Shown: piece by piece, positions 3,189 through 51,523 of the stretch
How positions within the stretch are numbered: the first letter of the stretch is position 1
How the letters are laid out: each line of letters opens with the position of its first letter
NCBI RefSeq assembly: GCF_003334335.1
Contig: NZ_QOWQ01000004.1
DNA from: Escherichia coli
GTDB lineage: Bacteria; Pseudomonadota; Gammaproteobacteria; Enterobacterales; Enterobacteriaceae
Reading direction: 5' to 3' (one strand)
Length of the DNA: 64,000 nucleotides
Translations under genes and position numbers: made by a program
The notes under the pieces: generated by a model
What the model saw: only the letters and a program-made list of their open reading frames with translations
Databases searched by the model: none
What the model was told of the DNA's origin: nothing

Positions 3189-4147
3189 TCGCTAATCCAT
3201 GCCTGACGTTGTGCCGCCACTTCGGCTGGCGTGAACTCCAACGTGGTTGCGGGTTTGGTCAATTTTTCAAAACCGGCAGGCAGCGTGACGTTTGCCACCG
3301 GATACATCCAGTTGCCGGTTGGGATCGCATTCTGGAAAGCCGGAGAAACCATAAACTGGAGGAATTTTTGCGCCAGCTCCGGCTGCTTGCTGGCAGCGGT
3401 GCGGGCGGCGACTTCCACTTGCAGATAGTGACCTTCGCTGAAGTTCGCGGCGGCGTAGTTATCTTTCTTCTCTTCGAGAATGTGATAAGCCGGAGAGGTG
3501 GTGTAACTCAGTACCAGATCGCTTTCACCTTTTAAAAACAGGCCGTAGGCTTCGCTCCAGCCTTTGGTGACCGTGACCGTTTTCTTCGCCAGTTTCTGCC
3601 AGGCTTGTGGGGCGTCATCGCCATAGACTTTTTGCATCCATAGCAACAGACCCAGCCCCGGTGTACTGGTGCGCGGATCCTGATAAATCACCCGCCAGTT
3701 TTGATCGCTCTCAACCAGTTCTTTCAGGCTTTGTGGCGGGTTTTTCAGTTTGTTCTTGTCATAAACGAAGGCGAAGTAGCCATAATCAAACGGTACGAAA
3801 GTGTCATTATTCCAGCCGCCGGGAACGTTAACGGCATCCGCTGCCACACCGCTTTTGGCAAACAGTCCGGTTTTACTGGCGGCGTCTAACAGGTTGTTAT
3901 CCAGCCCCAGCACCACATCGGCTTTACTGTTTTTGCCTTCCATCCGTAGACGGTTGAGAAGCGAAACGCCATCTTCCAGCGCCACCAGTTTCAGTTCGCA
4001 ATTACAGTCGGCTTCAAAGGCTTTTTTAACCACCGGACCAGGCCCCCAGTCGGCGGCGAAGGAATCGTAGGTATAAACAGTCAGAACGGGTTTAGCGAAA
4101 ACGGGCGCTGTGCACAGCAACAGCAGGGGCAGACATTTTTTTAACAC
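3164..4147 (-). CDS. thiB: periplasmic thiamine-binding protein
   Basis: ORF trimmed to MLKKCLPLLLLCTAPVFA signal peptide; periplasmic binding protein fold; first gene of thiBPQ. Confidence 0.9.
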   Translation of the reverse strand: MLKKCLPLLLLCTAPVFAKPVLTVYTYDSFAADWGPGPVVKKAFEADCNCELKLVALEDGVSLLNRLRMEGKNSKADVVLGLDNNLLDAASKTGLFAKSGVAADAVNVPGGWNNDTFVPFDYGYFAFVYDKNKLKNPPQSLKELVESDQNWRVIYQDPRTSTPGLGLLLWMQKVYGDDAPQAWQKLAKKTVTVTKGWSEAYGLFLKGESDLVLSYTTSPAYHILEEKKDNYAAANFSEGHYLQVEVAARTAASKQPELAQKFLQFMVSPAFQNAIPTGNWMYPVANVTLPAGFEKLTKPATTLEFTPAEVAAQRQAWISEWQRAVSR

Positions 4148-4182
4148 TTTGCACCTCAAAAAAGAGTGGCAAAGGACTTGAG

Positions 4183-4275
4183 AAGGAGCCTCAAATCCCT
4201 TCGCCGGCGTTATCCGGATCAGGTTCGACGGGTATTTTCTCAGCGCACGCGTACGCGTGGCACCCCGTTGAGAAC
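4183..4275 (-). promoter_or_regulatory. TPP (THI-box) riboswitch in thiBPQ leader
   Basis: On minus strand: GGGGTGCCACGCG...CTGAGAAAATACCCGTCGAACCTGATCCGGATAACGCCGGCGAAGGGA, matching conserved TPP aptamer elements (CUGAGA, ACCUGAUC, GGAUAAUGCC-like, GAAGGGA); boundaries approximate. Confidence 0.75.
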
Positions 4276-4310
4276 GGCGTTAGTGTAGTGATTTTGTTAT
4301 CAACCAGCAA

Positions 4311-5966
4311 TCATGGATCCGGTGGCGCAAACCACGCTGATTTAAAATCGAACCAGCCGAGGGTATTCATGCGCAGGCCGCGCATACTGCGTTGCCCCTG
4401 AATGATCAGCCAGTGGTGCAATAATGGCACCATCGCTTTGCTGGCGACCAGTTGCTGGCACCAGTTCGCCAGATTCATCTCGCCATTGCGCCAGCGAGCA
4501 GCGTCGGCTTGCCAGTCAATGGGAATGCAATGTTGTAGCAGTGGCACTTCGCATAAATGTGCGAAAACAGAGAAGTCCAGCGGCAGGGTAAAGTTGGCGC
4601 TGTTTAGCCAGATATCACTTTCGATCTCTCCTGTATGCCACTGATCGTAGTCGATCTCTTTGATTTTCAGCGTGACCTGGTGACTTGCCAGAATCTGCTG
4701 CATGATCCCGGCAATCACCCGATGCTCACTGTGATCCTGATAAAAGGTTAGGGTGAGGCTTTCCAGGCCAGCCGGTTTTTCGCTCTTTATGGTGCGGGCA
4801 TGGTGCCAACGGGGGAGCAGTCCATAAGCCGGGAACCACAGTTGCTGGTACTGTTCCTCAGCGAAATAGACCAGATTAGTTGGAGAAAGCACATAGCTTA
4901 CCCAGTCCCTGACTTGCTGATTCGCCCCGCGATGGGTGCGGCTGTCGAACAGTAAATAGTAGCAACCTTCCTCCAGGCGGCTTTCAATCTCTTTTTCCTC
5001 GCCCTGTGGACCTTTTAGCATCAGCCCTCCGGCTGGCTCGTCGGCAATTTCCGGCAGAACCCAGACGTTAACTTCGTCGATTAATGCCCGGTAACCGAAG
5101 AAGTCATCGAATGCCTGAATTTTCAGTTGATTGGTGCTGTTGCGAATCACCGCATACGGACCGGTGCCGATGGGATGGCTGGCAAAGTTACTGAGGGTTT
5201 CCCATTCGCGCGGCAGGATCATCGCCGGAACTTGCCCCAGCAGTAACGGTAACCAGCGGTCCGGTTGCGTGAGATGGATATCCAGCGTCCAGGGCGTCGG
5301 CGACACAATGTCAGCAATATGCGAATAGAGCGGCAGCGTATTGATTCGTTTTAAAGAGGCGATCACATCGTCCATTTCCAGTTCACGACCATGGTGAAAA
5401 TGGACTCCTGGACGCAAAAAGAAACGCCAGTGAAGCGGTGAAATTTGCTGCCAGTGGTGGGCGATGTCTGCTTCCAGTTCCCCATTTTCCTCATTTATGC
5501 GCGTTAGCGAACTGAAGATTTGCCGGGCGATATGGGTTTCGGAACGGCGCAATGCGCTGCCAGGTAGCAGATTACGCAACGGACGATAGTAGAGCACGCG
5601 CAGGATGTGCCGCCCCTGGCGGAAGCTGCGGCCCAGATGAGAAACCAGCATTTGCCGCACAGTCGCTTTGTCGCCAACCAACTGCACCAGTTGATCGATA
5701 CGATCCTGCTCCAGCAGGTCTTCCGCCCGCTGTTGCTGAAGCGCCAGCCCGGTATAGAGGAATGTCAGACGCGAGCGTTTACCGCGCCCGACTTCCGCTT
5801 CCCACGTCAGCCAGCCGCGATCCTGCATGGTGTTGAGCAGGGTGCGCATATGACGACGCGAGCAGCTCAATAACGCTGCCAGTTCGTTGAGCGTTGTGTC
5901 CTGCGATTTACCCTCGCAGCATTGCCACAGGCGGATGAACTGTTGTTGCAGACGAGCAGATGGCAT
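4311..5966 (-). CDS. sgrR: transcriptional regulator SgrR (HTH plus solute-binding domain)
   Basis: ORF 4311..5987 trimmed to [10 protein letters not shown]; N-terminal HTH, C-terminal solute-binding-protein-like domain; divergent from sgrS. Confidence 0.9.
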
Positions 5967-6033
5967 AAAAGGGGAACTCCTGTGCAAAAGACAGCAATTT
6001 TATTTTCCCTATATTAAGTCAATAATTCCTAAC

Positions 6034-6260
6034 GATGAAGCAAGGGGGTGCCCCATGCGTCAGTTTTATCAGCACTATTTTACCGCGACAGCGAAGTTGT
6101 GCTGGTTGCGTTGGTTAAGCGTCCCACAACGATTAACCATGCTTGAAGGACTGATGCAGTGGGATGACCGCAATTCTGAAAGTTGACTTGCCTGCATCAT
6201 GTGTGACTGAGTATTGGTGTAAAATCACCCGCCAGCAGATTATACCTGCTGGTTTTTTTT
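6034..6260 (+). ncRNA. sgrS: SgrS small RNA (dual-function: base-pairing RNA that also encodes SgrT)
   Basis: Divergent from sgrR; contains the sgrT ORF; 3' stem-loop CCAGCAGATTATACCTGCTGG followed by T8 ending at 6260; 5' end approximate. Confidence 0.75.
6055..6186 (+). CDS. sgrT: small protein SgrT (43 aa)
   Basis: Internal Met of ORF 5887..6186: MRQFYQHYFTATAKLCWLRWLSVPQRLTMLEGLMQWDDRNSES. Confidence 0.7.
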   Translation: MRQFYQHYFTATAKLCWLRWLSVPQRLTMLEGLMQWDDRNSES

Positions 6261-6287
6261 ATTCTCGCCGCGCTAAAAAGGGAACGT

Positions 6288-7466
6288 ATGATCTGGATAA
6301 TGACGATGGCTCGCCGTATGAACGGTGTTTACGCGGCATTTATGCTGGTCGCTTTTATGATGGGGGTGGCCGGGGCGCTACAGGCTCCTACATTGAGCTT
6401 ATTTCTGAGTCGTGAGGTTGGCGCGCAACCTTTCTGGATCGGCCTCTTTTATACGGTGAATGCTATTGCTGGGATCGGCGTAAGCCTCTGGTTGGCAAAA
6501 CGTTCTGACAGTCAGGGCGATCGGCGAAAACTGATTATATTTTGCTGTTTGATGGCTATCGGCAATGCGCTATTGTTTGCATTTAATCGTCATTATCTGA
6601 CGCTTATCACCTGTGGTGTGCTTCTGGCATCTCTGGCCAATACGGCAATGCCACAGTTATTTGCTCTGGCGCGGGAATATGCGGATAACTCGGCGCGAGA
6701 AGTGGTGATGTTTAGCTCGGTGATGCGTGCGCAGCTTTCTCTGGCATGGGTTATCGGTCCACCGTTGGCCTTTATGCTGGCGTTGAATTACGGCTTTACG
6801 GTGATGTTTTCGATTGCCGCCGGGATATTCACACTCAGTCTGGTATTGATTGCATTTATGCTTCCGTCTGTGGCGCGGGTAGAACTGCCGTCGGAAAATG
6901 CTTTATCAATGCAAGGTGGCTGGCAGGATAGTAACGTACGGATGTTATTTGTCGCCTCGACGTTAATGTGGACCTGCAACACCATGTACATTATTGATAT
7001 GCCGTTGTGGATCAGTAGCGAGTTAGGATTGCCAGACAAACTGGCGGGTTTCCTGATGGGGACGGCAGCTGGACTGGAAATACCAGCAATGATTCTGGCT
7101 GGCTACTATGTCAAACGTTATGGTAAGCGGCGAATGATGGTCATAGCAGTGGCGGCAGGAGTACTGTTTTACACCGGATTGATTTTCTTTAATAGCCGTA
7201 TGGCGTTGATGACGCTGCAACTTTTTAACGCTGTATTTATCGGCATTGTTGCGGGTATTGGGATGCTATGGTTTCAGGATTTAATGCCTGGAAGAGCGGG
7301 GGCAGCTACCACCTTATTTACTAACAGTATTTCTACCGGGGTAATTCTGGCTGGCGTTATTCAGGGAGCAATTGCACAAAGTTGGGGGCACTTTGCTGTC
7401 TACTGGGTAATTGCGGTTATTTCTGTTGTCGCATTATTTTTAACCGCAAAGGTTAAAGACGTTTGA
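6288..7466 (+). CDS. setA: sugar efflux transporter (MFS)
   Basis: 392-aa ORF with about 12 predicted TM helices; position downstream of sgrS. Confidence 0.85.
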   Translation: MIWIMTMARRMNGVYAAFMLVAFMMGVAGALQAPTLSLFLSREVGAQPFWIGLFYTVNAIAGIGVSLWLAKRSDSQGDRRKLIIFCCLMAIGNALLFAFNRHYLTLITCGVLLASLANTAMPQLFALAREYADNSAREVVMFSSVMRAQLSLAWVIGPPLAFMLALNYGFTVMFSIAAGIFTLSLVLIAFMLPSVARVELPSENALSMQGGWQDSNVRMLFVASTLMWTCNTMYIIDMPLWISSELGLPDKLAGFLMGTAAGLEIPAMILAGYYVKRYGKRRMMVIAVAAGVLFYTGLIFFNSRMALMTLQLFNAVFIGIVAGIGMLWFQDLMPGRAGAATTLFTNSISTGVILAGVIQGAIAQSWGHFAVYWVIAVISVVALFLTAKVKDV

Positions 7467-12375: not shown

Positions 12376-13034
12376 TAAATCAGCTCCAGATGAATGCGAT
12401 ATGCTTTTAGAGTTACTGGATACAAAAACGGATGTCAACCCTGACGCAATAAAAACGTCCCGCCAGCGTGAGTTCTGCATCCGTAAAATTAGCTAATTGT
12501 GCTGCGGTGGTTAAAGTAAGCGATATTAATTTCTGCTTAACTACCGACGCTTTTCATCGGTTGACATATTTCAGCATAAATTTTTGCATCTAATCAACGA
12601 GGAAAAAGGGGACAAAATGCACGCGTTGCAAAACCTATCCTGATGATTTGTATTGAATTATATGTTTTGCGATTTTTTTTGATATTGATTTGGTGAATAT
12701 TATTGATCAATTAATGTTAAGAATTAATGCATTAAATATATAAATTAATTATTAAATAAGCACATTTAATCCATTTTGTAGATGATTGAGTATTCGCGGT
12801 AGTTATGATTAGATTGTTTTCGCAACAAAAACATTATGGATTATTATGCTGTGGTAAATGACTCATTCCACGGCAATGGATTCTGTTTTTATCAGAACCC
12901 GTATCTTTATGTTTTCCGAATTTTACTCATTTTGCTTTTTCTTATTTTATATGCATGATAAATCATATTCTTCAGGATTATTTCTCTGCATTCCAATAAG
13001 GGAAAGGGAGTTAAGTGTGACAGTGGAGTTAAGT

Positions 13035-48844: not shown

Positions 48845-50218
48845 TTAATGCGCTTTTACGGCTTTGGCGGTTTTCTCTTTAAACAGATAGCCGATACCTA
48901 ACACGATCAGCCATACCGGGATCAGGTATACCGAAATCGCCATTCCTGGGGTCATCAGCATAATCACCAGTACCGCCGCCATAAACAGCAGGCAGATCCA
49001 GTTACCCAGCGGATAAAGCAGAGCAGGGAAGCGAGTTACCACGCCTTGTTCCTGCTTGGCGCGACGGAATTTCATATGCGCCAGGCTAATCATCGCCCAG
49101 TTGATTACCAGTGCAGATACCACCAGCGCCATTAACAGTCCGAAAGCGGACTCTGGGGCAAGGTAGTTAATCAGTACGCACAACGCCGTTACCAGTGCAG
49201 ACACCAGAATGGTATTTACTGGTACACCACGTTTATCGACAGACGCCAGCGCTTTTGGCGCATTACCCTGTTGTGCCAGACCAAACAGCATACGGCTGTT
49301 GCAATATACGCAGCTGTTGTACACGGAGAGCGCCGCAGTCAGTACCACGATGTTCAGCGCATTCGCCACAAAGGTATCGCCTAACTCGTGGAAGATCAGC
49401 ACAAACGGACTGGTATCGGCGGTAACGCGGGTCCACGGCATCAGTGAGAGCAGAACGGCTAACGAACCAATATAGAAAATCAGGATGCGGTAGATAACCT
49501 GGTTAGTTGCTTTCGGTATACTTTGCTCCGGGTTATCAGCTTCTGCTGCGGTGATCCCCACCAGTTCCAGACCACCGAACGAGAACATGATAATCGCCAT
49601 CATCATCACCAGCCCGGTGAAGCCGTGCGGCAGGAAACCACCCTGATCCCACAGGTTGCTAACGGTCGCCTGCGGGCCGCCGTTGCCACTGAATAGCAGC
49701 CAGCCGCCGAAGATGATCATCGCTACCACCGCGATAACTTTGATAATGGCAAACCAGAACTCCATCTCGCCAAACACTTTAACGTTGGTCAGGTTGATGG
49801 CGTTAATCACCACAAAGAATACGGCGGCAGAAACCCAGGTGGGGATTTCCGGATACCAGAACTGAATGTATTTACCCACGGCAGTCAGCTCAGCCATGGC
49901 AACTAAAACGTACAGTACCCAGTAGTTCCAGCCAGAGGCGAAACCGGCAAAACTGCCCCAGTATTTATAAGCAAAGTGGCTAAAGGAGCCTGCGACAGGT
50001 TCTTCGACCACCATTTCACCCAGCTGACGCATGATCAGAAAGGCGATAAAACCAGCAATGGCGTAACCCAGGATAATCCCTGGCCCTGCGGACTGTATTA
50101 CGGAGGCGCTACCCAGGAATAACCCGGTCCCTATCGCGCCACCCAGCGCGATAAGCTGAATATGGCGGTTTTTAAGGCCGCGCTTTAGCTGCTCGCCGTG
50201 CTGTTGACCTTCCATCAT
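48845..50218 (-). CDS. aroP: aromatic amino acid permease (APC family)
   Basis: 457-aa ORF with 12 TM helices. Confidence 0.9.
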   Translation of the reverse strand: MMEGQQHGEQLKRGLKNRHIQLIALGGAIGTGLFLGSASVIQSAGPGIILGYAIAGFIAFLIMRQLGEMVVEEPVAGSFSHFAYKYWGSFAGFASGWNYWVLYVLVAMAELTAVGKYIQFWYPEIPTWVSAAVFFVVINAINLTNVKVFGEMEFWFAIIKVIAVVAMIIFGGWLLFSGNGGPQATVSNLWDQGGFLPHGFTGLVMMMAIIMFSFGGLELVGITAAEADNPEQSIPKATNQVIYRILIFYIGSLAVLLSLMPWTRVTADTSPFVLIFHELGDTFVANALNIVVLTAALSVYNSCVYCNSRMLFGLAQQGNAPKALASVDKRGVPVNTILVSALVTALCVLINYLAPESAFGLLMALVVSALVINWAMISLAHMKFRRAKQEQGVVTRFPALLYPLGNWICLLFMAAVLVIMLMTPGMAISVYLIPVWLIVLGIGYLFKEKTAKAVKAH

Positions 50219-50710
50219 GAAACCTCGTGCGGTGGTTGTTTTTTTGATCTACGCAGTGATGCGTGTGTAAGTTTGCAATTCCGTTTGTTGTATTAATTTG
50301 TTTACATCAAAGAAGTTTGAATTGTTACAAAAAGACTTCCGTCAGATCAAGAATAATGGTATGCGGCAGCGAATGCACCCGCTTTATGCATGGTTGAAGA
50401 TGAGTTGCTTAAAAAGAAACCGTTTGTAAAGCTCAGCCTCAACCCCTCTCAATATGTAGAATGAATTTAAATTCGTTTTAATTGAATTAAAAATCACAAA
50501 ATTGGTAAGTGAATCGGTTCAATTCGGATTTTTATAGTTTAATAATCGTTAAAAAACTCCTTTCCTACGTAAAGTCTACATTTGTGCATAGTTACAACTT
50601 TGAAACGTTATATATGTCAAGTTGTTAAAATGTGCACAGTTTCATGATTTCAATCAAAACCTGTATGGACATAAGGTGAATACTTTGTTACTTTAGCGTC
50701 ACAGACATGA

Positions 50711-50727
50711 AATTGGTAAGACCAATT
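50711..50727 (+). promoter_or_regulatory. PdhR operator-like palindrome
   Basis: AATTGGTAAGACCAATT about 30 bp upstream of the pdhR start; GntR-type inverted repeat. Confidence 0.55.
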
Positions 50728-50758
50728 GACTTCGGCAAGTGGCTTAAGACAGGAACTC

Positions 50759-51523
50759 ATGGCCTACAGCAAAATCCGCCAACCAAAACTCTCCGATGTG
50801 ATTGAGCAGCAACTGGAGTTTTTGATCCTCGAAGGCACTCTCCGCCCGGGCGAAAAACTCCCACCGGAACGCGAACTGGCAAAACAGTTTGACGTCTCCC
50901 GTCCCTCCTTGCGTGAGGCGATTCAACGTCTCGAAGCGAAGGGCTTGTTGCTTCGTCGCCAGGGTGGCGGCACTTTTGTCCAGAGCAGCCTATGGCAAAG
51001 CTTCAGCGATCCGCTGGTGGAGCTGCTCTCCGACCATCCTGAGTCACAGTATGACTTGCTCGAAACACGACACGCCCTGGAAGGTATCGCCGCTTATTAC
51101 GCCGCGCTGCGTAGTACCGATGAAGACAAGGAACGCATCCGTGAACTCCACCACGCCATAGAGCTGGCGCAGCAGTCTGGCGATCTGGACGCGGAATCAA
51201 ACGCCGTACTCCAGTATCAGATTGCCGTCACCGAAGCGGCCCACAATGTGGTTCTGCTTCATCTGCTAAGGTGTATGGAGCCGATGTTGGCCCAGAATGT
51301 CCGCCAGAACTTCGAATTGCTCTATTCGCGTCGCGAGATGCTGCCGCTGGTGAGTAGTCACCGCACCCGCATATTTGAAGCGATTATGGCCGGTAAGCCG
51401 GAAGAAGCGCGCGAAGCATCGCATCGCCATCTGGCCTTTATCGAAGAAATTTTGCTCGACAGAAGTCGTGAAGAGAGCCGCCGTGAGCGTTCTCTGCGTC
51501 GTCTGGAGCAACGAAAGAATTAG
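50759..51523 (+). CDS. pdhR: pyruvate dehydrogenase complex repressor (GntR family)
   Basis: ORF 50726..51523 trimmed to [18 protein letters not shown]; GntR HTH. Confidence 0.9.

What the first reader, a model, noticed from the sequence alone, without database searches (positions are those of the whole stretch)
50289..50306. TyrR-box-like palindrome in the aroP promoter region
TGTATTAATTTGTTTACA fits the TGTAAA-N6-TTTACA TyrR box pattern in 13 of 14 defined positions (one mismatch, TGTATT for TGTAAA in the left arm) and lies about 70 bp upstream of the aroP start on the minus strand. A weaker partially matching sequence follows at about 50311..50330. aroP is a known TyrR regulon member, so this is a plausible operator.
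Basis: partly seen in the sequence, partly recalled or inferred. Interest (0 to 1): 0.25.

Follow-up and report, generated by a model that had tools for sequence, protein, structure and literature searches.

The report
Known TyrR operator of E. coli aroP
This palindrome is the well-known strong TyrR repressor binding site in front of the E. coli aromatic amino acid transporter gene aroP, so the finding is correct but ordinary.

Summary
The window is E. coli chromosome. Its aroP-pdhR intergenic region is base-for-base identical to K-12 MG1655 (window = K-12 coordinate minus 71,333).

TGTATTAATTTGTTTACA is at 50289..50306 as reported. It matches TGTAAA-N6-TTTACA at 10 of 12 defined positions, not 13 of 14, and keeps the essential G-N14-C pair. 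That meets the published definition of a strong TyrR box.

The consensus match alone is no better than chance in 64 kb. Three other results make the case:
- A matrix built from eight TyrR boxes of other K-12 operons ranks it first of 63,983 window positions.
- Its arms are at least 90% conserved across 80 Enterobacterales aroP upstream regions, 52 bp from the invariant TATTCT -10 hexamer in 59 of them.
- It has a weak partner box 23 bp away, the same spacing as in tyrP, aroF and aroL.

The weak box is at 50266..50283, on the aroP side.

Published mechanism: TyrR with an aromatic amino acid binds downstream of the aroP P1 start and recruits RNA polymerase to the overlapping divergent promoter P3, which excludes it from P1.

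Already known; low interest.

The parts
50289..50306 (.). Strong TyrR box. In aroP sense it reads TGTAAACAAATTAATACA. K-12 coordinates 121622..121639. It starts at -88 from the aroP ATG.
   Evidence: 10 of 12 matches with G-N14-C. Scores 17.75 bits, rank 1 of 63,983, with a matrix built without aroP. G-N14-C is kept in 76 of 80 Enterobacterales, and the GTAAA and TACA arms are at least 90% conserved. The sequence is identical to K-12.
50266..50283 (.). Weak TyrR box. In aroP sense it reads CGGAATTGCAAACTTACA. K-12 coordinates 121599..121616. It starts at -65 from the ATG. Its centre is 23 bp from the centre of the strong box.
   Evidence: 8 of 12 matches with G-N14-C. Scores 7.95 bits, rank 9 in the window and second in the intergenic region. 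G-N14-C is kept in 65 of 80 taxa, and the TTACA arm is 80-90% conserved. The 23-bp spacing equals that of the tyrP, aroF and aroL box pairs. The order aroP, weak box, strong box, P3 fits the S. bongori deletion series in PMC7142922.
50350..50355 (-). TATTCT, inferred -10 hexamer of the main aroP promoter P1.
   Evidence: Present at the aligned position in 77 of 80 taxa. The literature says P1 overlaps P3 on the opposite strand. The assignment to P1 is my inference; the consensus scan found no promoter here.
50373..50378 (-). GTGCAT, inferred -35 region of P1, 17 bp upstream of TATTCT. It lies inside the conserved block AAAGCnGGTGCA.
   Evidence: Columns at least 90% conserved. Inference only.
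50357..50362 (+). TGGTAT, -10 hexamer of the divergent promoter P3.
   Evidence: PMC7142922 gives the P3 -10 as TGGTAT and shows that mutating it abolishes activity. This is the only TGGTAT in the right place.
50332..50339 (+). Approximate -35 region of P3 (AAGACTTC). The AT-rich stretch just upstream, about 50312..50331, is the reported P3 UP element and P2 -10 region.
   Evidence: PMC7142922 figure legend: the UP sequences of P3 overlap the P2 -10, and the K-12 -35 differs from S. bongori CACTCT at three bases. The exact hexamer could not be fixed here.
48845..50218 (-). aroP coding sequence, the regulated gene.
   Evidence: NCBIfam NF007594 AroP equivalog, 1029.9 bits against a cutoff of 848. 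RefSeq annotation agrees.

Best explanation
50289..50306 is the strong TyrR box of the E. coli aroP regulatory region, and 50266..50283 is its weak partner.

The following mechanism comes from the literature and was not tested here. A TyrR dimer occupies the strong box. With phenylalanine, tyrosine or tryptophan bound (and with tyrosine plus ATP, as a hexamer that also fills the weak box), TyrR activates the divergent promoter P3. It does so from roughly 70 bp upstream of the P3 start (my estimate from the P3 -10). P3 overlaps the main aroP promoter P1 on the opposite strand, so polymerase held at P3 shuts polymerase out of P1. TyrR binding alone is reported to be insufficient to repress P1. 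The boxes lie about +46 and +69 from the P1 start that I infer. They also lie just downstream of the minor promoter P2, which TyrR represses too. The result is that the transporter's own substrates lower its synthesis.

Shown here: sequence identity to K-12, box quality, matrix rank, pair spacing, and conservation of both the sequence and its distance to the promoter core.

Inferred, or taken from papers: TyrR binding, the cofactor dependence, and recruitment of polymerase to P3.
For: - Identity of the locus. The window is E. coli nadC-ampD-ampE-aroP-pdhR-aceE. The intergenic region is identical to K-12. The coordinate offset is cross-checked by the published PdhR box position 122052, which maps to window 50719.
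- Box quality. 10 of 12 matches with G-N14-C, which is the published strong-box definition.
- Matrix score. A matrix built from 8 boxes of tyrP, aroF, tyrR, aroL, mtr and aroG gives 17.75 bits, rank 1 of 63,983. The training sites score 13.9-24.4 bits. The weak box ranks 9th.
- Pair spacing. The -88/-65 pair has the same 23-bp spacing as tyrP -109/-86, aroF -112/-89 and aroL -128/-105. The pair arises by chance in 0.8% of window shuffles and 0.12% of intergenic-region shuffles.
- Conservation across 80 Enterobacterales. G-N14-C is kept in 76 and at least 9 of 12 matches in 65. The box centre is exactly 52 bp from the TATTCT hexamer in 59 and within 51-53 bp in 73.
- Literature. There are two TyrR sites downstream of the aroP start, and polymerase is recruited to P3. 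TyrR binding alone is not sufficient to repress P1. Strong and weak boxes lie upstream of P3, TyrR activates P3, and TyrR binding has been shown. aroP is a TyrR regulon member in 11 Enterobacteriales genomes.
Against: - The consensus match alone is not significant in 64 kb.
- I could not read the original footprint papers of Wang, Yang and Pittard. No open paper prints the box sequence. The assignment of these exact 18-mers to the published boxes therefore rests on elimination: they are the only two G-N14-C sites with at least 8 of 12 matches between the aroP ATG and the P1/P3 core.
- The matrix training sites were picked by consensus match in the upstream regions of known regulon genes, not from footprints.
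- The promoter positions for P1 and P2 are inferred. The consensus promoter scan finds nothing in this intergenic region.
Confidence: 0.93

Rival explanations
1. The boxes act as a plain steric operator or roadblock. TyrR bound in the leader blocks initiation or elongation from P1 and P2, and P3 plays no part.
For: The boxes lie downstream of the inferred P1 and P2 starts, which is a position suited to a roadblock. From my own recollection, TyrR represses P2 directly (Yang, Wang and Pittard 1999, not read here).
Against: PMC3167631, citing Wang et al. [quoted passage not shown] The box-to-promoter distance is fixed at 52 bp in 59 of 80 taxa. That fits a protein-protein contact that depends on helical face better than a roadblock, which would tolerate variable distance.
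Confidence: 0.04
2. The palindrome is the site of a different DNA-binding protein that prefers AT-rich DNA, for example H-NS or another regulator. Its likeness to a TyrR box is incidental.
For: The intergenic region is 35% G+C. H-NS binds this region in usp-positive strains.
Against: Conservation is concentrated on the TyrR-specific arms GTAAA and TACA, while the AT-rich spacer varies. The matrix built from other TyrR operons ranks it first. The reported H-NS sites lie downstream of the P3 start, not here.
Confidence: 0.02
3. It is a chance palindrome in AT-rich intergenic DNA with no function.
For: 74-86% of window shuffles contain an equally good consensus match.
Against: The arms are at least 90% conserved from Escherichia to Pectobacterium and Serratia, at a fixed distance from the promoter core. 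There is a paired weak box at the canonical 23 bp. The gene it precedes is a documented TyrR regulon member.
Confidence: 0.01

Closest known systems
[quoted passage not shown] 1998)
   Same: Same locus and the same sequence, base for base. Same arrangement: two boxes downstream of the P1 start and upstream of the divergent P3.
   Different: Nothing that I could detect. The only gap is that the original figures could not be read to confirm the exact box borders.
Double TyrR operators of tyrP, aroF-tyrA and aroL in K-12
   Same: A box with at least 10 of 12 matches paired with a box of 8-9 matches. Both keep G-N14-C, and the centres are 23 bp apart.
   Different: In those operons the boxes overlap or adjoin the promoter and repress by occlusion. 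At aroP they lie in the leader and act through a decoy promoter on the other strand.
The TyrR-activated P3 promoter driving usp in uropathogenic E. coli and Salmonella bongori (PMC7142922)
   Same: The same boxes and the same P3 -10. TyrR with phenylalanine activates P3.
   Different: In those strains a small island (usp and imu genes) sits downstream of P3, so P3 is productive. In this window, which resembles K-12, no island is present and P3 has no known product. In a usp-positive strain the strong box reads TGTATTGATTTCTTTACG, 9 of 12 matches.
The akr-ipdC divergent TyrR boxes of Enterobacter cloacae UW5 (PMC4374768)
   Same: A strong and a weak box in a divergent intergenic region. The strong box activates one promoter while expression in the other direction is reduced.
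   Different: There both promoters give protein-coding transcripts, the weak box overlaps the -10 of the repressed promoter, and its half-site spacing is atypical.

Membership tests
Strong TyrR box | At least 10 of 12 matches to TGTAAA-N6-TTTACA (definition quoted in PMC4374768) | tested here: met
   10 of 12. The mismatches are at positions 5 and 6 of the left arm on the + strand (definition).
Strong TyrR box | Invariant G and C separated by 14 bp (G-N14-C), essential for TyrR binding | tested here: met
   G at 50290 and C at 50305. Kept in 76 of 80 orthologous regions.
Strong TyrR box | Scores like the boxes of other TyrR regulon operons | tested here: met
   17.75 bits with a matrix built without aroP. 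The training sites score 13.9-24.4 bits. Rank 1 of 63,983 in the window. Caveat: the training sites were chosen by consensus match.
Strong TyrR box | Lies in the regulatory region of a gene under TyrR control | tested here: met
   Lies 71-88 bp upstream of the aroP ATG. aroP is listed as TyrR-regulated.
Strong TyrR box | Bound by TyrR protein without cofactor in vitro | not testable with these tools
   Reported for K-12 by Wang et al. 1997, as cited in PMC7142922. The sequence here is identical to K-12. The primary papers are not held.
Strong plus weak TyrR double operator | A weaker box (fewer than 10 matches, G-N14-C kept) next to the strong box on the same helical face | tested here: met
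   50266..50283 has 8 of 12 matches with G-N14-C and its centre is 23 bp away, the same spacing as in tyrP, aroF and aroL. A 5-bp spacer is found in 45 of the 64 taxa that have both boxes.
   The best register, 50312..50329, matches 5 of 12 and has no G at position 2. It scores -6.8 bits, rank 2814. Its columns are 30-50% conserved. The literature places the P3 UP element and the P2 -10 here.
Decoy-promoter repression (polymerase recruited to divergent P3) | An activator site at a fixed distance upstream of a divergent promoter that overlaps the repressed promoter | tested here: met
   The P3 -10 TGGTAT (50357..50362, + strand) abuts the P1 -10 TATTCT (50355..50350, - strand). The box centre is 52 bp from TATTCT in 59 of 80 taxa and within 51-53 bp in 73.
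Decoy-promoter repression (polymerase recruited to divergent P3) | Repression of P1 requires polymerase bound at P3, not TyrR binding alone | not testable with these tools
   Stated in PMC3167631, citing Wang et al. 1998.

The most novel reading that the evidence does not exclude
The most novel reading the evidence leaves open is that the decoy-promoter design is ancestral to the whole order Enterobacterales, not a peculiarity of E. coli. The strong box, the overlapping P1/P3 core and the 52-bp distance between them are kept from Escherichia to Pectobacterium and Serratia. In the Pantoea and Mixta group the roles of the two boxes appear swapped: the distal box matches 8 of 12 and ends in TACG, while the proximal box matches 10-11 of 12. 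That could change which box nucleates TyrR. This would be a modest comparative extension of known biology, not a new kind of system.
Probability: 0.4. Interest if true: 0.15.

Novelty: already known. Interest (0 to 1): 0.05.

Why it matters
It matters little for discovery. This is a textbook operator of the TyrR regulon in a stretch identical to E. coli K-12.

Its value is as a calibration case. A consensus match that is not significant alone becomes convincing once three things are added: a matrix built from other operons, the 23-bp pairing rule, and phylogenetic footprinting.

The fixed 52-bp distance to the promoter core across the order is a small independent confirmation that the distance from box to promoter is under constraint, as the published recruitment mechanism requires.

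Tried and rejected
- Consensus counting alone. The site is the only hit in the window, but 2.0 hits are expected by chance, so I rejected it as evidence by itself.
- Consensus scan for sigma-70 promoters and terminators over 50150..50800. It found nothing. P1, P2 and P3 are all non-consensus, so promoter positions had to come from the literature and from conservation.
- Reading the primary papers under the PMC ids I tried (PMC179241, PMC179242, PMC107600, PMC103777). None is held.
- Full-text search for the 18-mer on either strand. No paper holds it. The supplement of the comparative-regulon paper lists aroP in the TyrR regulon but gives no site sequence.
Rejected as a TyrR box.
- Fixing the exact P3 -35 hexamer by comparison with the published S. 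bongori CACTCT. Both GACTTC (17-bp spacer) and AAGACT (19-bp spacer) differ from it at three bases, so this is unresolved.
- Searches were an incomplete script and file-location checks. They carry no result.

Full report
**What is there.** The window is Escherichia coli chromosome with the gene order nadC, ampD, ampE, aroP (minus strand, 48845..50218), pdhR (plus strand, 50759..51523), aceE. A 651-bp query across the site matches 5,424 of 5,426 complete E. coli genomes. The two flanking proteins pass the NCBIfam equivalog cutoffs for AroP and PdhR, and RefSeq annotation agrees. The 540-bp aroP-pdhR intergenic region is identical, base for base, to K-12 MG1655 NC_000913.3 121552..122091. Window coordinate therefore equals K-12 coordinate minus 71,333. 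A published coordinate checks this offset independently. The PdhR box AATTGGTaagACCAATT is reported at K-12 122052 (PMC7660256), which maps to window 50719. That is the centre of the palindrome I found at 50712..50726.

**Checking the observation.** TGTATTAATTTGTTTACA is at 50289..50306. The consensus TGTAAA-N6-TTTACA has 12 defined positions and the site matches 10 of them. TGTATT differs from TGTAAA at two bases. It is the only site in the window with up to two mismatches, but shuffles give 2.03 such sites on average and 86% of shuffles have at least one. If the G-N14-C pair is also required, the expectation is 1.45 per window, and 0.07 for the intergenic region alone. The pattern match by itself is therefore not evidence.

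**Evidence beyond the consensus match.** Four lines of evidence carry the argument.
- *Definition.* Boxes with at least 10 matches are called strong, and the G and C spaced 14 bp apart are the invariant, essential feature (PMC4374768). The site meets both criteria.
- *Matrix score.* I fetched the upstream regions of seven other K-12 TyrR-regulated genes: tyrP, aroF, tyrR, aroL, mtr, tyrB and aroG. Six of them, all except tyrB, yielded eight boxes with at least 10 matches. I built a symmetrised weight matrix from those eight, without aroP, and scanned the window. The finding scores 17.75 bits, inside the range of the training sites (13.9-24.4), and ranks first of 63,983 positions.
- *Pairing.* A second G-N14-C site with 8 of 12 matches lies at 50266..50283 (TGTAAGTTTGCAATTCCG; in aroP sense CGGAATTGCAAACTTACA). 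It is the second-best matrix hit in the intergenic region and ninth in the window. The two boxes start at -88 and -65 from the aroP ATG, so they are 23 bp apart. This equals the spacing of the pairs at tyrP (-109/-86), aroF (-112/-89) and aroL (-128/-105). Such a pair occurs in 0.8% of window shuffles and 0.12% of intergenic-region shuffles.
- *Conservation.* I aligned the aroP upstream regions of 79 other species of Enterobacterales (one labelled Aeromonas) found with the AroP protein. At the aligned position, 76 of 80 rows keep G-N14-C and 65 match at least 9 of 12. The arm bases GTAAA and TACA are at least 90% conserved, while the six spacer bases vary. The box centre lies exactly 52 bp from the end of a TATTCT hexamer in 59 rows and within 51-53 bp in 73. 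TATTCT itself is present in 77 rows. The weak box keeps G-N14-C in 65 rows.

The stretch at 50311..50330 is not a TyrR box. Its best register matches 5 of 12 positions and lacks the G. It scores -6.8 bits, and its columns are only 30-50% conserved. The literature places the AT-rich UP element of P3 and the -10 of the minor promoter P2 in this interval (PMC7142922 figure legend). The same paper's deletion series in Salmonella bongori removes the weak box first when trimming from the aroP side. It also retains activity with a 111-bp fragment holding only the strong box and P3. The order is therefore aroP, weak box, strong box, P3, which agrees with my assignment.

**How it works.** The mechanism below comes from papers and was not tested here.
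- aroP has a main promoter P1, a minor promoter P2 21 bp downstream of it, and a divergent promoter P3 that overlaps P1.
- TyrR binding alone is not sufficient to repress P1 (PMC3167631, citing Wang et al. 1998).

In the window the P3 -10, TGGTAT, is at 50357..50362 on the plus strand. The conserved TATTCT, which I take to be the P1 -10, is at 50355..50350 on the minus strand, so the two cores abut. By my estimate the strong box is centred about 46 bp downstream of the P1 start and about 71 bp upstream of the P3 start. Both start sites are inferred from the hexamers, and the consensus promoter scan found nothing here. The near-invariant 52-bp distance across the order fits a mechanism that needs TyrR and polymerase on a defined face of the helix.

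**Comparison with what is known.** This is the aroP operator itself, not a relative of it. All sequence-level defining features of a strong TyrR box were tested and met. Binding by the protein could not be tested here, but it is reported for this exact sequence. aroP was already placed in the TyrR regulon of Enterobacteriales by comparative genomics, in 11 genomes. The finding is therefore already known.

**Limits.**
- I could not read the primary footprint papers, and no open paper prints the 18-mer.
- The link between 'the published boxes' and these coordinates rests on three points. The sequence is identical to K-12. The stated location is between the P1/P3 core and the aroP start. These are the only two G-N14-C sites with at least 8 matches in that interval.
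- The matrix training sites were selected by consensus match, not taken from footprints.

**Verdict.** The interpretation as a TyrR operator of aroP is supported with high confidence. Novelty: already known. Interest: low.

Noticed in passing
window 50712..50726 (full palindrome 50711..50727): A perfect PdhR operator, AATTGGTAAGACCAATT, lies 33 bp upstream of the pdhR ATG. It is the only hit in the window (0.14 expected by chance). It matches the published PdhR box at K-12 122052, which has the strongest SELEX peak (PMC7660256).
   Followed up: yes
window 50510..50521: A palindrome TGAATCGGTTCA fits, from my memory, the Cra (FruR) half-site pattern TGAAnCGnTTCA. It is the only hit in the window (0.07 expected by chance). 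It is conserved as (C)TGAAnCGATTCA(G) in most Enterobacteriaceae rows of the alignment (columns 60-73). PMC7660256 says in general terms that PdhR targets are also under CRP and/or Cra. I did not confirm a Cra site at this position.
   Followed up: partly
window 50406..50430: A conserved block TTGCTTAAAAAGAAACCGTTTGTAA lies about 60-90 bp upstream of the inferred P1 start. In aroP sense it reads TTACAAAnGGTTTCTTTTTA, with the TTTCTTTTT core 80-90% conserved within Enterobacteriaceae. It may be the UP-like element proposed for P1 or another factor's site. This is not resolved.
   Followed up: no
window 50499..50509 and 50709..50719: The 11-base string AAATTGGTAAG occurs twice in the intergenic region. 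One copy is the left half of the PdhR operator. The other lies directly next to the Cra-like palindrome. The upstream copy could be a PdhR half-site; I did not test this.
   Followed up: no
L090 (E. coli 23CRST013) 3449..7050; about 1,000 of 5,426 E. coli genomes: About a fifth of complete E. coli genomes do not match the K-12 form of this intergenic region at full length: 4,364 of 5,424 do, and 4,412 of 5,426 match the 110-bp core. The one such genome I examined carries an inserted gene cluster downstream of P3, consistent with the PAIusp island (usp plus immunity genes) that PMC7142922 places at this site. In that strain the strong box reads TGTATTGATTTCTTTACG (9 of 12, G-N14-C kept) and the weak box and P3 -10 are unchanged, but the DNA between the box and P3 is replaced. 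RefSeq labels the first gene of the cluster, at the expected usp position, a frameshifted 'tssD'.
   Followed up: partly
L040, L049, L058, L060-L062 (Pantoea, Mixta); L059 (Pantoea stewartii); L068-L070 (Tatumella): In the Pantoea and Mixta group the distal box is weaker (CGTAAA..TACG, 8 of 12) and the aroP-proximal box is the better one (TGTAA..TTACA, 10-11 of 12), with a 3-4 bp spacer. P. stewartii has lost the distal box, and Tatumella lacks recognisable boxes at both positions.
   Followed up: no
alignment A1, first base of the strong box: Most species have CGTAAA rather than TGTAAA at the left arm in aroP sense: 60 of 80 rows have C and 16 have T. Position 1 of the consensus therefore seems weakly constrained at this operator, and E. 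coli is in the minority.
   Followed up: no
window 49897..49914 and 12739..12756: The next-best TyrR matrix hits in the window are TGGCAACTAAAACGTACA (10.9 bits, inside the aroP coding sequence about 300 bp from the start) and TATAAATTAATTATTAAA (12.5 bits, no G-N14-C). I did not check conservation. They are probably chance matches.
   Followed up: no
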